Part shown: one piece after another, positions 43,828 through 51,488 of the stretch
Position numbering within the stretch: position 1 is the first letter of the stretch
Layout of the letters: every line of letters begins with the position of its first letter
DNA from: an uncultured Verrucomicrobiae bacterium
GTDB taxonomy: Bacteria; Verrucomicrobiota; Verrucomicrobiia; Palsa-1439
Assembly (NCBI GenBank): GCA_963812605.1
Contig: CAWEWF010000004.1
Location: 256,001 to 320,000 of the forward strand
DNA: 64,000 nt
Direction of reading: 5' to 3'
Notes under the pieces: generated by a model
Database searches by the model: none
Told to the model about the DNA's origin: nothing
The model's input: the letters and a program-made list of their open reading frames with translations, nothing else
Position numbers and translations under genes: made by a program

Positions 43828-43880
43828 ATGAACACCATACGCTGCGCACTAACTGGTTTCGGTAGTTTCCTAACTTGGAG
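43828..43880 (+). CDS. Detached 5' end (first 17 codons) of the RCC1-repeat gene, cut off by IS110-1
   Basis: ATG at 43828 reads MNTIRCALTGFGSFLTW and joins in frame at the AG core to 45083 (RATLRRG...). Confidence 0.7.
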
Positions 43881-43891
43881 CAACTGTCTTT

Positions 43892-44832
43892 TCATAAGGG
43901 TTGGAAAGTAGGTTCTTGGAGCAGGCGATTGAGTAAGATGATGAGTTTGCGCATGACGGCGACCAGGGCGACTTTGGGGGCCTTGCCCTTGGCCACCAAG
44001 CGTTGATAGAAGGGCTGCAATTGCGGGTGGCGAAAGGCCGCCACCAGAGCCGACATGTACAAGGCCCGCCGGGCGGCGGGCCGTCCTCCGCCGATTTGTC
44101 GGCGTCCCCGATGCGGACCACTGTCGCGATTGAAGGGAGCCACACCCGCCAGCGCCGCGGCCTGGCGCCGATTCAGCGTGCCCAATTCCGGCAGCAGCGC
44201 CAACAGCACGACGGCCGTCAGGCGTCCCACGCCGACCACCGAACAGAGTCGGGCGACTTTCTGCGCCAGCGCGGGCTCGGCTTGGACCAAGGCGGCGATC
44301 CACGCGGCGAGCTGTTCCAGGTGTCGATCCAGTTGGCTGAGGTGGCGCTGGATCTCCCGGCGGGCGTCGGGGTGGGTGAGATGCTCCAAGCGGTTGTGCT
44401 CGGCCACGCGCAGCGCCAGGACTTGTTGGCGACGGGTGACCAACTCCGCCAGTTGACTCTGGGCGGCGCTCAACGCGGCGGTCCGGCCGGGCGTACGGCG
44501 GCGCCGTAAGCCGCCAGCACGGCGGCATCCAGTTGGTCAGTCTTGGCCAGCCGACCGGTGGCGCGGGCGAAGTCGCGCACGTGACGCGCGTTGACTACCG
44601 AAACCACTACACCGGCCGCGTGCAGGGCGGCCACGACGGCGCGTTCATAGCCGCCTGTGGCTTCGCCGATGACGTGCACGGATCCCAGAGCTTGCAGCCA
44701 ACGCACCAAGGCGCGGTGGCCCTGAGGGTGGTTGGGAAACTGACGGAACTGCGCGCGGGATCCGCTGGCGGCGTGCAGATCCAGGGTGAGTTTGGCGACA
44801 TCCATTCCGACGTAGACGATCGATGGCAACAT
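43892..44832 (-). CDS. IS110 DEDD recombinase, 1-bp frameshift near 44485
   Basis: [32 protein letters not shown] and VAVMRKL motifs; AGGAGGAG ribosome-binding site. Confidence 0.93.
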
Positions 44833-44839
44833 GGTTAGA

Positions 44840-45060
44840 CTCCTCCTTGCAATGCGAGCCTGGTGGTGGCGCGGATGGGCGCGACCGCCGCTCTGGCAAC
44901 TGTTCGAGCGTACCGACAGGCAACGCGGATGGATCCAGCTCCAAACGGACAGGTCTGAACCGAACCGAGGGCCACGACGATCACTTCCGCGCGCCCTTGG
45001 GGGGCATGCCCCCCAAGGGCCATCCTGTCGCTCCCACACCGGTGGGAAACCAAGCCAGAG
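44840..45060 (-). ncRNA. Predicted bridge RNA of IS110-1 (ends approximate)
   Basis: In 5'-3' order on minus: left target guide CGTGGCCCT (44976-44968), right target guide TTGGAG (44944-44939), left donor guide ACAGTTGC (44903-44896), right donor guide TGCAAG (44851-44846, one G-T wobble). Confidence 0.8.
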
Positions 45061-45082
45061 AGTACCAAAAATTCTAGATACA

Positions 45083-45146
45083 AGGGCCACGCTCCGTCGT
45101 GGCCGCATTGAGCGCGCAACGGACGCAACAGAGCGCGTCCCTCCAA
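45083..45146. repeat. TGGAG-family REP doublet split by IS110-1
   Basis: (TTGG)AGGGCCACGCTCCGTCGTGGCC ... GGACGCAACAGAGCGCGTCCCTCCAA. Confidence 0.8.
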
Positions 45147-49257: not shown

Positions 49258-49342
49258 ATGAAAAGGGGTGCTTCTGTAGCGGCGCTCTATGAGCGCCGAG
49301 GGTTCACGCAATGGATACGGACGGCGGTCATAGACCGCCGCT
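49258..49342 (+). CDS. Detached 5' end of a secreted-protein gene, containing a GTAG REP doublet and cut off by IS110-2
   Basis: ATG at 49258 after a GGAGG-rich site reads MKRGASVAALYERRGFTQWIRTAVIDRR and joins in frame at the CT core to 50595 (YSFCVIAIFG...). REP arms: GTAGCGGCGCTCTATGAGCGCCG and CGGCGGTCATAGACCGCCGCT(AC). Confidence 0.72.
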
Positions 49343-49359
49343 TGTATCTTGCCCGATAT

Positions 49360-49595
49360 GGTTCCTTATTGTAGCCCCGTAGGGGAACCGACCATGGTGG
49401 ACAAGCCGGGGAAAGGTGAATCTGTGACCGCCGCCAGGCCCACGAGCCTGAGCTGTAGATTCGATCCCTTTCCCCGTGGTCGGCTCAGGCCGAACGGTAT
49501 CGGAGGTCCTCCGAACGCCTTCGGAGTGAACCTGTATGCACAAGCCCGGCCACGCCAACCGATCCGTCCACCGCCCACACTCAACCATAAGGAGA
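49360..49595 (+). ncRNA. Predicted bridge RNA of IS110-2 (ends approximate)
   Basis: Left target guide GACCGCCGC (49426-49434), right target guide AGCTGTAG (49451-49458), left donor guide ACGGTATC (49494-49501), right donor guide ACAAG (49540-49544); the target loop is closed by GAAT/ATTC and contains a CAGGC/GCCTG hairpin. Confidence 0.85.
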
Positions 49596-49600
49596 CTGCC

Positions 49601-50578
49601 ATGACAAGTTATCACCCACTGGGCCTGGACATCGCCAAACGCACCGTCGACGCGGCGTTGTTGCTAGACAAGGGCCGCTATCGCCATCATCAATTCACCA
49701 ATTCGCCGACCGGTTTCACCGCACTGGCCGCTTGGCTGCGCCGACATGCCACCGGCCCCGTTCACGCCGGCTTGGAAGCCACCGGCAGTTATGGCAACGC
49801 GCTGGCGCTATTCCTGCACCAGCAAGGCACGCCTGTGAGCGTCATCAACCCGACGCGGATCCATGCCTTTGCCCAGAGCGAATTGTCGCGTAATAAGACC
49901 GATCCCCTGGATGCCGCGCTCATCGCCCGCTTCGTGGCCACCCAGCAACCGCCACCGTGGACACCCCCACCGCTGGAACAACGCCAACTCCAAAGCCTGG
50001 TGCGTCGGATCGAGGCGCTCCAAGCCATGCGCCAGCAAGAACGCAACCGATTGGATCTGGAAGCCGACGACAGTCTGGTGGCCGATTCCTTGCGCCAGCA
50101 CCTGGCTTATCTGGACGCACAACTGCGCGGCCTCCAACAACGTCTGCGCCAACACCTCCGAGCGCATCCGCCGTTACAACACCAAAACGATCTGTTGCAG
50201 ACCATCCCGGGCATTGGGGAAACCACGGCGCTCAAACTGTTGGCCGAAATGCCCGGTCTGGCCCAGTGGTCCAGCGCCCGGCAAGTCGTGGCCTATGCGG
50301 GACTCAATCCGCAGCAGCGCACCTCGGGCAGTTCGGTGCGCGGGCGCAGCCATCTGAGCAAGATCGGCAATGCACGCCTGCGCCGTGCCCTCTACCTGCC
50401 GGCCGTGGTGGCGATGCGTTACAACCCACTGCTCAAAGCGTTTGCCCAGCGATTACGGGAACGCAACAAACCCCCGATGGTCATCGTCGGCGCCGTCATG
50501 CGCAAACTGTTGCACCAAGCCTATGGCGTCCTCAAACACGCCACCCCTTTCAATCCCAACCACGCAACGACCCATTGA
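49601..50578 (+). CDS. IS110 DEDD recombinase, intact
   Basis: LGLDIAK, GLEATG, NKTDPLDA, IPGIG, YAGLNPQQRTSGSS and GAVMRKL motifs; AAGGAG ribosome-binding site. Confidence 0.96.
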   Translation: MTSYHPLGLDIAKRTVDAALLLDKGRYRHHQFTNSPTGFTALAAWLRRHATGPVHAGLEATGSYGNALALFLHQQGTPVSVINPTRIHAFAQSELSRNKTDPLDAALIARFVATQQPPPWTPPPLEQRQLQSLVRRIEALQAMRQQERNRLDLEADDSLVADSLRQHLAYLDAQLRGLQQRLRQHLRAHPPLQHQNDLLQTIPGIGETTALKLLAEMPGLAQWSSARQVVAYAGLNPQQRTSGSSVRGRSHLSKIGNARLRRALYLPAVVAMRYNPLLKAFAQRLRERNKPPMVIVGAVMRKLLHQAYGVLKHATPFNPNHATTH

Positions 50579-50593
50579 CAACCAAGACGGTAT

Positions 50594-51488
50594 CTACAGC
50601 TTCTGCGTGATTGCGATCTTTGGGATCAGTATCCGCTGCTTATCCACCTTTGCCGCCAGCACCGTCACCACCAGCAGCCTTGACGGCGGCGGACTGCACG
50701 CGACCAGCGCTAATTACTCGATGGATAGTAGCGTCGGCGACATCGGCGGGATTTCCAGCGGCGGGAACATCTCGACCCTGCCCGGCTCCGTCGGTCAACT
50801 CACCGAGATCGTCAGTATCAGCGTCACCAGCACACCCTGGCATCGTCAACGAAGACGCGACCAGCCAGCTCAGCGCTACCGCCTCCTTCGATGACAACAG
50901 CGTGTCCATCCTCTCGGGCAGCGACGTTGCATGGGCCAGCGCGGTCTACCCACTGGCCTCGATCGACAGCAACGGCTTGGCAACGGCGGCGTCCGTGTAT
51001 GCCACGACCAATGGCGTATTCAGCGGTTTCTACCTGGGCCTCTCCAGCACCGGCCTCGTGGCCGTGATCGACAGCAATCCCGACAACTACGGCAGCTACG
51101 CCGGCGATGGCATACCGGACAGTTGGCAGGTGCAATATTTCGGCACGAACAATCCCAAAGCCGCGCCGGGCATTGACGCGGATGGCACCGGAAACAGAAC
51201 AATCTCTTCAAGTACACCGCCGGCCTCGACCCAACTAACCCCACCTCAATCTTCGTATTGAAAATCGCCAGCGTCACCGGCCAGCCGACGCAGAAGAACC
51301 TGATCTTCAACCCCATCGCCGGCGGACGGACGTATATCATCGAAGCCAGAACGAATCTGCTCAGCGGCAGTTACGCCGCGCTCGCCAGCGCCAGCGGTCC
51401 GGTCACCAACGTCAACCAGGTCACCGTAACCGATCTAAGCGCCACGCAGACCTCGAAGTTCTACCGCGTCCACGTTTCGCTGCCGTAA
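50594..51488 (+). CDS. Secreted protein with Ig-like domain, Ca-binding-type DGIPDSWQ motif and FYRV C-terminal domain; interrupted by IS110-2; frameshifts near 50840 and 51195
   Basis: Pieces in three frames: SLDGGG...SANYS; TSQLSATASFDD...GDGIPDSWQVQYFG; GRTYIIEARTNL...FYRVHVSLP. Confidence 0.75.

What the first reader, a model, noticed from the sequence alone, without database searches (positions are those of the whole stretch)
43828..51488. Both IS110s interrupt secreted-protein genes at in-frame REPs in the signal-peptide n-region: a possible excision-controlled ON/OFF switch
Seen in sequence: deleting IS110-1 joins ATG 43828 in frame to the RCC1-repeat gene (MNTIRCALTGFGSFLTW-RATLRRG...LLLLQAVAVRA). 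Deleting IS110-2 joins ATG 49258 in frame to the next secreted gene (MKRGASVAALYERRG...VIDRR-YSFCVIAIFG). In both cases the REP doublet is translated ahead of the hydrophobic signal core. Established knowledge: IS110-family excision can restore the target precisely, and IS492 phase-varies exopolysaccharide in Pseudoalteromonas atlantica this way. Inference: coding REPs act as landing pads that let RNA-guided recombinases reversibly silence two consecutive surface-protein genes. I am not aware of this arrangement being described. It could also be neutral decay of an accessory locus.
Basis: partly seen in the sequence, partly recalled or inferred. Interest (0 to 1): 0.85.

Follow-up and report, generated by a model that had tools for sequence, protein, structure and literature searches.

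The report
Two RNA-guided IS110s in gene-start REPs
Two different RNA-guided jumping genes have landed in short palindromic repeats that sit inside the start (export-signal) region of two neighbouring secreted-protein genes of a soil Verrucomicrobium, most likely switching them off by ordinary insertion rather than as a built-in on/off switch.

Summary
IS110-1 (43879-45082, minus strand) and IS110-2 (49343-50595, plus strand) are distinct IS110-family elements whose recombinases are 38% identical. Each sits at the CT core of a GTAG/CTAC-tagged REP hairpin. Leaving each out joins ATG 43828 and ATG 49258 in frame to the RCC1-repeat gene and to the next secreted gene.

Targeting is RNA-guided. 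Each left end carries 9-10-nt and 6-9-nt guide segments matching its own REP, and these guides co-vary with the target in relatives.

The upstream ATGs are probably the ancestral starts. No other good start exists. Skipping the REP doublets leaves signal peptides of 25 and 41 residues, as in homologues.

The switch idea has no support. No empty-site contig was found, though only low-depth contigs were available. The three other full IS110-1 copies and the second IS110-2-type copy lie in intergenic REPs. The IS110 literature read here reports excision as inefficient or copy-out.

The locus is a ~10-kb accessory island absent from the two closest genomes. Its frameshifts look like assembly indels, not decay.

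Best reading: opportunistic, REP-programmed insertional inactivation. This is a new member of a known kind, of modest interest.

The parts
41445..51595 (.). About 10.15-kb accessory island holding gene A, IS110-1, the RCC1-repeat gene, IS110-2 and gene C. It lies between two conserved, divergently oriented genes. Boundaries are approximate.
   Evidence: In the two closest genomes (G012 = L130, G006 = L131; flanking proteins 82-97% identical) the homologue of 40525-41418 lies directly beside the homologue of 51983-54211. Nothing from the island is found there.
42151..43815 (+). Gene A: a 554-aa predicted secreted repeat protein with no family match. Its TAG stop lies 12 nt before ATG 43828 and in the same frame.
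   Evidence: ORF list; no Pfam or NCBIfam hit; sequence.
43828..43878 (+). The 5' piece (17 codons) of the RCC1-repeat gene, cut off by IS110-1. The last 17 nt (43862-43878) are the tail of the REP, beginning with its GTAG tag.
   Evidence: (REP tail consensus in empty copies).
43879..45082 (-). IS110-1, 1204 bp. The recombinase is split into two frames (44470-44832 and 43892-44473) by one missing base near 44483. The left-end non-coding region is 44833-45082.
   Evidence: Alignment to three 1203-bp copies with an intact recombinase of about 313 aa; Pfam.
44896..44976 (-). Guide segments of the IS110-1 bridge-type RNA. The left target guide is 44967-44976 and the right target guide is 44939-44944. 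They lie on the two sides of one internal loop. The left donor guide is 44896-44903.
   Evidence: Complementarity scan; coordinates; co-variation with targets in relatives; consensus fold with 10 of 68 pairs kept through changes on both sides.
45083..45166 (+). The rest of the family-1 REP doublet (two inverted hairpins, ending in a CTAC tag). With 43862-43878 it totals 101 nt. It is open in the gene's frame.
45167..49166 (+). RCC1-repeat plus long repeat protein. It appears as two overlapping ORFs in the window (to 46669, and from 46584). It becomes one frame of 1360 codons, counted from 45083, if the base at 46630 is left out. The hydrophobic signal core lies at about 45206-45256.
   Evidence: Pfam RCC1 and RLD domains. 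A short-read contig lacks one base at 46630 and the frames then fuse. The closest homologue has a single open frame of 1082 aa.
49207..49232 (+). Another dispersed 26-nt repeat in the spacer before gene C.
   Evidence: 28-nt identical hits on contigs C14 and C6 and a 33-nt 94% hit on C11; coordinates.
49258..49342 (+). The 5' piece of gene C: ATG plus 5 codons of a basic n-region, then the family-2 REP doublet (49276-49342).
49343..50595 (+). IS110-2, 1253 bp. The left-end non-coding region is 49343-49600 and the intact recombinase is 49601-50578. Guide segments: left target 49426-49434, right target 49450-49458, left donor 49494-49501.
50596..51488 (+). Gene C body: the last 2 nt of the REP, the hydrophobic signal core, then a secreted protein of about 300 aa read in three frames in the window. 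The frame breaks are near 50838 and near 51.2 kb.
   Evidence: Homologues are single ORFs with open frames of 190-520 aa (298-520 without G001:C127, 190). One contig lacks a base at 50838 and the first two frames then fuse. The second break has no read cover.

Best explanation
Two unrelated members of the IS110 family of RNA-guided (bridge-RNA type) insertion sequences have each inserted at the CT core of a GTAG/CTAC-tagged REP hairpin, the site their own guide RNA is programmed for. The two REP doublets had earlier settled, without breaking the frame, inside the n-region of the export signal of two consecutive secreted-protein genes. Those genes lie in a roughly 10-kb accessory island.

Each insertion now separates the start codon and n-region from the hydrophobic core and the mature protein. 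Both genes are therefore most likely silenced, or at least no longer exported. The placement follows from where matching REPs happen to lie, not from a dedicated switch. Reversal by precise excision is chemically possible but is neither shown nor needed to explain the locus.

Shown: the element boundaries, the REP targets, guide-target matching with co-variation, the in-frame joins and the island.

Inferred: that the upstream ATGs are the true starts, that the REP-bearing signals worked before insertion, and that the genes are now off.
For: Family membership:
- Both domains are present in both elements. NF033542 'IS110 family RNA-guided transposase' scores 254 bits, cut-off 140.
- The two recombinases are 38% identical.

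Guides:
- IS110-2 carries a 9-nt segment identical to its left target. It also carries a 9-nt segment (one G-U pair) pairing with the right target and an 8-nt segment identical to its right end.
- IS110-1 carries a 10-nt left-target match, a 6-nt right-target match and an 8-nt donor match.
- This is the layout described for IS621: the 5' side of a loop pairs with the bottom strand over 8-9 nt, and the 3' side pairs with the top strand over 4-7 nt (PMC11208160, passages).

Co-variation:
- The C8 copy and L113 have different left guides, each matching its own REP variant.
- Seven IS110-1 relatives in four congeners carry other left guides and a right guide changed at one base. They sit at ...CCCT|AC sites (ACAA in 4 of 7), not ...CCCT|CC.

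REP background:
- The genome holds 166 tagged hairpins. By crude gene searches are outside genes and 90 lie between same-direction genes.
- 4 Y1 transposase matches exceed the cut-off.

True starts:
- No ATG, GTG or TTG lies between 43828 and the hydrophobic core of the RCC1 gene. Gene C has only GTG 50607, at the first residue of the core.
- Skipping the REP doublets leaves signals of 25 and 41 residues. Homologues have 22-28 (5 with short signals) and 38-45 (4 of 5 congeners).
- The gene C doublet is exactly 69 nt.

No bias toward gene starts: the other copies lie in intergenic REPs.
Against: - No expression, protein or read-level data exist for this locus. No RNA run was listed.
- REPs in this genome are otherwise extragenic. 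I found no other convincing in-frame REP in a signal peptide, so the two upstream ATGs could be chance.
- At 8 of 11 other IS sites a long open frame also spans the empty site.
- In the gene C homologues with long open N-terminal extensions, another frame is open for as long.
- The RCC1 doublet measures 101 nt between its tags, which is not a multiple of three.
- 2 of the 6 full IS110 elements of a 4.17-Mb assembly lie in this 10-kb island. A purely random choice among REPs would not predict that.
- In one run a contig carrying the window's left flank and IS110-2 runs on into unlike sequence after 50598. The right junction therefore has no independent short-read support.
Confidence: 0.65

Rival explanations
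1. The REP doublets and the two IS elements lie in non-coding leaders. The genes start downstream of the elements, at GTG 50607 for gene C and at a TTG inside the core or a non-canonical codon for the RCC1 gene. The in-frame upstream ATGs are coincidence. The insertions then affect transcription at most.
For: - REPs here often end a few bases before genuine start codons. Examples are C14:731817, C5:123331 and C6:97884.
- 38 of 166 tagged hairpins lie within 100 nt upstream of a called start.
- Long chance open frames across empty sites are common, at 8 of 11 other sites. At L113 the gene's own frame is open across the junction although a start follows 22 codons later.
- GTG starts occur in 3 of the 9 gene C homologues with short signals.
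- Shine-Dalgarno use is weak in this genome, 19% against a 10% background in a noisy set. A missing ribosome site therefore does not exclude these starts.
Against: - Starting at GTG 50607 gives a 16-residue signal without any charged n-region. The RCC1 gene would have 13 residues from the first TTG.
- The upstream ATGs give the homologues' signal lengths once the doublets are skipped.
- ATG 49258 is followed by Lys-Arg and preceded by a purine-rich GGAGG-type stretch.
Confidence: 0.2
2. This is a selected, reversible switch. In-frame REPs in signal peptides are kept as landing pads. Insertion and precise excision of the two IS110 elements then turn two surface proteins off and on in subpopulations, as IS492 does for exopolysaccharide.
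For: - Leaving out either element restores a continuous frame.
- IS110 elements are described as excising scarlessly (PMC11208160, passage). Post-excision junctions were detected by PCR at native IS621 loci (PMC13626964, section 5).
- Intact IS110-1 recombinase copies exist in trans.
- Two of six elements lie in one 10-kb island of surface-protein genes.
- REP-like hairpins also lie in open N-terminal extensions of gene C homologues in G004 and G016.
Against: - No empty-allele evidence was found (contigs only).
- The other copies are in ordinary intergenic REPs.
- Excision is reported as less efficient than insertion. Two preprints report copy-out with the donor copy retained (abstracts).
- The local IS110-1 recombinase is broken as assembled.
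- Nothing links the two elements functionally: their recombinases are 38% identical and their guides differ.
Confidence: 0.08
3. The arrangement is an assembly artefact: repeated IS copies were placed wrongly in a long-read metagenome assembly.
For: - The window carries single-base errors at several places.
- A short-read contig leaves the window's sequence right after the IS110-2 end.
Against: - A contig of 1984 nt covers 49214-50598, the unique left flank plus the whole of IS110-2, without a difference.
- The elements are only 1.2 kb, sit exactly at their guide-matched REP sites with CT on both sides, and the flanks join into sensible genes.
Confidence: 0.03

Closest known systems
IS621 of Escherichia coli (IS110 family, bridge RNA)
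   Same: DEDD plus Transposase_20 recombinase; a non-coding left end with a loop whose two sides match the left and right target; a CT core; insertion into REP hairpins; no terminal inverted repeats (PMC11208160 passages).
   Different: These are different elements in a Verrucomicrobium with other guide sequences. No RNA, circle or activity data exist here. The right donor guide was not identified, and there is no Rfam model to test against.
ISPpu9 / ISPpu10 of Pseudomonas putida (IS110 family in REPs)
   Same: Several near-identical copies, each inserted at the same position of one REP family (search listing and abstract starts only).
   Different: Those insertions are described as intergenic. 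Here two lie in REPs that read through in frame into a gene.
IS492 at the eps locus of Pseudoalteromonas atlantica
   Same: An IS110-family element whose precise excision restores a surface-polymer gene. I saw it only as titles in a reference list; the rest is recalled.
   Different: There, switching and circles were shown experimentally, and the target is not a REP. Here nothing shows switching.
Intragenic REPs and Rickettsia palindromic elements (RPE)
   Same: Short palindromic repeats found inside open reading frames, in frame, in genes thought to stay functional. GTAG-tagged REPs are reported in Verrucomicrobia (PMC3733652, passages).
   Different: Those reports do not, in the passages I read, place them in signal peptides or combine them with an IS110 insertion. 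The list of target ORFs is in a supplement I could not open.

Membership tests
IS110 family, RNA-guided (bridge-RNA type) insertion sequence | Recombinase with an N-terminal DEDD (RuvC-like) domain and a C-terminal Transposase_20 domain | tested here: met
   PF01548 and PF02371 are found in IS110-2, and in the two pieces of IS110-1. IS110-2 scores 254 bits against NF033542, cut-off 140.
IS110 family, RNA-guided (bridge-RNA type) insertion sequence | Non-coding left end with a target-binding loop. Its 5' side equals the left target and its 3' side is complementary to the right target, both including the core. | tested here: met
   9-10-nt and 6-9-nt matches in both elements. Guide and target change together in the C8 copy and L113 and in 7 relatives of IS110-1. 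In the consensus fold the two guides lie on the two sides of one internal loop.
IS110 family, RNA-guided (bridge-RNA type) insertion sequence | Donor-binding loop matching the element's own ends | tested here: inconclusive
   An 8-nt left donor guide equal to the right end is present in both elements. No clear right donor guide was found at 7 nt or more.
IS110 family, RNA-guided (bridge-RNA type) insertion sequence | A two-base core at both junctions, with no terminal inverted repeats and no longer target duplication | tested here: met
   CT lies at both junctions of every copy aligned.
IS110 family, RNA-guided (bridge-RNA type) insertion sequence | A circular intermediate with a junction promoter, and a transcribed guide RNA | not testable with these tools
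   Only contigs of DNA runs were available.
GTAG-tagged REP / REPIN | A short GC-rich hairpin with a GTAG (CTAC) tag, in many copies, often as inverted doublets | tested here: met
   166 tagged hairpins of several sub-families, and doublets at several loci.
GTAG-tagged REP / REPIN | Predominantly extragenic | tested here: met
   133 of 166 lie outside my crude gene calls. Several of the 33 'inside' cases are over-extended calls.
GTAG-tagged REP / REPIN | A cognate Y1 (RAYT-type) transposase in the genome | tested here: inconclusive
   4 PF01797 matches exceed the cut-off, one of them about 350 nt from a REP on C1. I did not separate RAYT from IS200-type.
IS-mediated phase variation (IS492 type) | Occupied and precisely empty alleles co-exist in one population | tested here: inconclusive
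   No contig joins 43878 to 45083 or 49342 to 50596 in 4 runs. However, contigs at depth 2-7 drop rare variants.
IS-mediated phase variation (IS492 type) | Excision restores an intact reading frame | tested here: met
   In-silico removal gives continuous frames at both sites.
IS-mediated phase variation (IS492 type) | High-frequency excision and a switching phenotype | not testable with these tools
   This needs cultures or deep long reads.
Sec-type signal peptide | A basic n-region, a hydrophobic core and a small-x-small cleavage site within about 20-30 residues (longer in extended forms) | not testable with these tools
   No predictor was on hand. By eye, the core and an Ala-x-Ala-like site are present in both genes. 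With the REP doublets the leaders would be 48 and 75 residues; without them, 25 and 41.

The most novel reading that the evidence does not exclude
REP doublets that have colonised the n-region of export signals, in frame, act as addressable landing pads. Bridge-RNA IS110 elements programmed for those REPs insert and precisely excise there. This gives a soil Verrucomicrobium heritable, reversible silencing of individual surface proteins within a hypervariable island. It would be an RNA-addressed contingency locus.
Probability: 0.07. Interest if true: 0.7.

Novelty: new member of a known kind. Interest (0 to 1): 0.35.

Why it matters
The locus shows natural reprogramming of IS110 guides clearly. 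Within one genus, both halves of the target guide change together with the REP variant that is hit. It also shows that REPs can lie, apparently tolerated, inside the coding part of an export signal.

If insertion and excision at such sites were frequent, this would be a new route to surface variation in an abundant but little-studied soil phylum. As it stands, the locus is an ordinary consequence of REP-targeted transposition in an accessory region. It is also a caution: frameshifts in long-read metagenome assemblies should not be read as gene decay.

Tried and rejected
1. 'The genes are decaying pseudogenes'. I first read the frame breaks (RCC1 gene to the next ORF, gene C, the IS110-1 recombinase) as decay. 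I rejected this for two of them. The only contigs covering 46630 (run X1) and 50838 (run X3) lack one base there, and the frames then fuse. The conserved gene at 51983-54211 also has an extra base near 51943-51955 relative to relatives.

2. Empty sites in public data. Four DNA runs of one study hold parts of the stretch, and no RNA holder was listed. No contig crosses an empty site and large parts have no cover. The three joints listed there have short sides (22-30 nt) at repeats and do not match excision.

3. Same-species contigs. A metagenome scan with gene C found no relative. A scan with the RCC1 part found 80 loci at 70% identity or less, none of them the same locus.

4. Homology of the 17-codon piece at 43828 to a similar-looking ORF after a gene A-like gene in G013. 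Only 9 nt match, and 67 of 500 shuffles score as high.

5. Rfam: no match in 43500-51600 at E up to 1.

6. Promoter and terminator scan: no excess over shuffles.

7. Other in-frame REPs. The long frames through family-1 REPs elsewhere are junk frames or have a start after the REP.

8. A frame-openness test on 15 gene C homologues. Other frames are open as long as the gene's frame, so the test gives no evidence either way.

9. Composite transposon. The two elements share no DNA similarity, their recombinases are 38% identical, and the island's ends do not coincide with IS ends.

11. I did not follow the unlike sequence that continues a contig beyond 50598.

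
Full report
**What is there**

The stretch 43828-51488 lies in G000 contig C4, a 4.17-Mb, 15-contig assembly of 58% G+C. The closest IS relatives in other genomes carry record titles of Verrucomicrobiae/Verrucomicrobiota MAGs.

The ORF list and Pfam show the following order:
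- gene A, 42151-43815, 554 aa, no family;
- an IS110-type recombinase on the minus strand, split into two frames (44470-44832 and 43892-44473);
- an RCC1-repeat ORF running to 46669;
- an overlapping 860-aa repeat ORF, 46584-49166. It has no Pfam family and only a sub-threshold NCBIfam hit to a T5SS/PEP-CTERM-associated repeat, 19 bits against a cut-off of 23;
- an intact IS110 recombinase, 49601-50578;
- a gene of about 300 aa read in three frames up to 51488 (gene C).

BLAST against the whole genome found three more full copies of IS110-1, 98-99.6% identical, on C8, C10 and C14. It also found one partial copy, and one 87% identical copy of IS110-2 on C8.

Alignments with flanks place IS110-1 at 43879-45082 (1204 bp; the other copies are 1203 bp) and IS110-2 at 49343-50595. 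Every copy has CT at both junctions, reading in the element's own orientation.

The recombinases of the two elements are 38% identical, and their DNA does not cross-match. They are two different insertion sequences. A whole-genome PF01548 search finds only these two kinds: six full elements and one partial.

**The targets are REPs**

IS110-1 always follows ...GTGGCCCT, and the next bases are CC. The genome holds 15 unoccupied exact copies of that 11-mer and 5 occupied ones. Empty copies show that the repeat continues for about 17 nt to a CTAC tag. The bases 43862-43878 on the far side of IS110-1 are therefore still REP.

IS110-2 follows ...GACCGCCGCT, and the next bases are ACA. There are 12 unoccupied exact copies, and 2 occupied ones counting the C8 variant.

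Both targets in the window are inverted doublets. One is 101 nt (43862-43878 plus 45083-45166) and the other is 69 nt (49276-49342 plus 50596-50597).

A simple search finds 166 hairpins with a (G/C)TAC tag, of several sub-families. Four Y1-transposase matches exceed the Pfam cut-off.

GTAG-tagged REPs, their presence in Verrucomicrobia and their occasional location inside ORFs have been described (PMC3733652, passages).

**Targeting is RNA-guided**

IS110-2: in the 258-nt left end, 49426-49434 is identical to the 9 bases left of the insertion point. 49450-49458 pairs with the core plus right flank (one G-U pair). 49494-49501 equals the 8 bases before the final T of the element's right end.

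IS110-1: the corresponding segments are 44967-44976 (10 nt), 44939-44944 (6 nt) and 44896-44903 (8 nt).

This is the arrangement reported for IS621. There the 5' side of an internal loop pairs with the bottom strand over 8-9 nt, and the 3' side pairs with the top strand over 4-7 nt, core included (PMC11208160, passages).

The guides also co-vary with their targets:
- The C8 copy of IS110-2 and a 70% identical element in another MAG (L113) have left guides differing at three or more positions. Each matches the REP variant it sits in, apart from one terminal base in L113 (C in the target, T in the guide).
- Seven relatives of IS110-1 in four congeneric genomes (66-73% identical) carry other left guides and a right guide changed at one base. 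They sit at ...CCCT|AC, not ...CCCT|CC; four of the seven read ACAA after the core. Three of the seven left-target matches are perfect and two have one mismatch.

A consensus fold of eight left ends puts the two target guides on opposite sides of one internal loop. 10 of 68 pairs are kept through changes on both sides. Rfam has no matching model.

It is also already known for this family: IS621, ISPpu9/10, and Tobes and Pareja 2006 (listing).

**Are the REPs really inside the genes?**

Evidence for:
- Between the stop of gene A (43813-43815) and the hydrophobic core of the RCC1 gene, the only ATG, GTG or TTG in frame is ATG 43828.
- For gene C, the only alternative to ATG 49258 is GTG 50607 at the first residue of the core. 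It would give a 16-residue signal without a charged n-region.
- If the doublets are skipped, the leaders are 25 residues (gene C) and 41 residues (RCC1 gene).
- Five gene C homologues with ordinary signals have 22-28 residues.
- Four of five congeneric RCC1 homologues have 38-45 residues. More distant metagenome homologues have about 25, in 27 of 30 loci by my reading of the printout.
- ATG 49258 is followed by Lys-Arg, and the gene C doublet is exactly 23 codons.
- In two congeners (G004 and G016, and the G016-like copy in G001) a REP-like hairpin also lies within an open N-terminal extension of the gene C homologue.

Evidence against:
- I found no other convincing case in this genome.
- REPs here often end just before true start codons.
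- Open frames across empty sites are common, at 8 of 11 other IS sites.
- In the gene C homologues with long extensions, another frame is open just as long.
- The RCC1 doublet is 101 nt between its tags.
- The cleavage sites are my reading, because no predictor was available.

I put the chance that the upstream ATGs are the ancestral starts at about 0.7 for gene C and 0.6 for the RCC1 gene.

**Is it a switch?**

Nothing I could test says so:
- The three other full copies of IS110-1 lie between genes. One (C10) sits in a divergent promoter region 160 nt before a transporter gene. One lies after a TPR gene. One lies 29 nt after a stop codon and 684 nt before the next start.
- The second IS110-2-type copy lies in a spacer near a tRNA-like sequence. 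I did not confirm that sequence with a tRNA search.
- The window sites belong to the commonest REP context, between two genes of the same direction: 90 of the 133 extragenic hairpins.
- The four public runs that hold parts of the stretch are kept as low-depth contigs. None crosses an empty site, which proves little.
- On mechanism, IS110 elements are described as excising scarlessly, and post-excision junctions were detected at native IS621 loci. However, excision was reported as less efficient than insertion (PMC13626964, abstract and section 5). Two preprints report mainly copy-out, with the donor copy retained (abstracts only).
- IS492 is the precedent for switching. I saw it only as reference titles.
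- My three literature searches listed no paper describing an IS110 in an in-frame REP of a signal peptide. Supplementary tables of targets (Durrant 2024; Di Nocera 2013) were not available and may hold such cases.

**Surroundings**

In the two closest genomes the homologue of 40525-41418 lies directly next to the homologue of 51983-54211 (flanking proteins 82-97% identical). The spacer is about 0.4 kb in G006 and about 0.9 kb in G012. Roughly 41445-51595 of the window is therefore a 10-kb island specific to this genome.

In several congeners, homologues of gene A and gene C are direct neighbours elsewhere in the genome.

Two of the genome's six full IS110 elements lie in this island. That fits relaxed selection in an accessory, REP-rich region as well as it fits anything more purposeful.

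**Decay?**

The apparent frameshifts are not good evidence of decay:
- The only contigs that cover 46630 and 50838 lack one base there. Leaving those bases out fuses the RCC1 ORF with the 860-aa ORF into a 1360-codon frame, and fuses the first two pieces of gene C.
- The conserved neighbouring gene also has an extra base at about 51943-51955 compared with relatives.
- The break in the IS110-1 recombinase cannot be judged, because contigs from the four copies collapse.

**Verdict**

The switch remains an untested inference, which I rate at about 0.07-0.08.

The best explanation is opportunistic, guide-programmed insertion into REPs that had themselves settled in frame in two export signals, silencing two accessory surface-protein genes (confidence 0.65).

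Noticed in passing
window 46630; 50838; about 51943-51955; about 51.2 kb; 44483: There are single-base frame breaks in otherwise intact genes. At 46630 and 50838 the only short-read contigs lack one base. At about 51.95 kb a conserved gene has an extra base compared with relatives. This looks like indel error of a long-read assembly, so frameshifts elsewhere in this genome should be read with care.
   Followed up: partly
window about 41445-51595: A roughly 10-kb island of secreted-protein genes is absent from the two closest genomes. It is inserted in a divergent intergenic spacer. Its left edge (41445-42150) is REP-rich and drops to 50% G+C.
   Followed up: partly
window 49207-49232: A 26-nt repeat of another family has identical or near-identical copies on contigs C14, C6 and C11. 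It lies in the spacer just before ATG 49258.
   Followed up: no
window 49214-50598 (run X1), 49327-50599 (run X2): Short-read contigs carry IS110-2 followed by sequence unlike the window. In X1 the contig also carries the window's own left flank. Either there are further insertion sites of this element in the same soils, or the contig path is chimeric through the repeat.
   Followed up: no
G000 whole genome: Only two IS110 kinds occur, as six full copies, and two of these lie within this 10-kb island. Exact empty target sites still outnumber occupied ones: 15 against 5, and 12 against 2.
   Followed up: partly
L016 (G004), L018 (G016), L145 (G001): Gene C homologues in other species of the genus have a REP-like hairpin inside a long open N-terminal extension. 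The extension begins at an ATG right after the upstream gene's stop. The start region of this gene family therefore seems to be a recurrent REP site.
   Followed up: partly
L118, L123, L126, L119, L120, L121 (congeners): Relatives of IS110-1 have both halves of the target guide changed and insert at a different REP end (...CCCT|AC). G5_C7 and G15 sit at sites that match the left guide poorly, so they may be off-target or half-match insertions.
   Followed up: partly
G000:C4:364703-365426 (outside the window): A truncated IS110-1 copy (the last 726 bp), with its own frame break, lies in a REP doublet.
   Followed up: no
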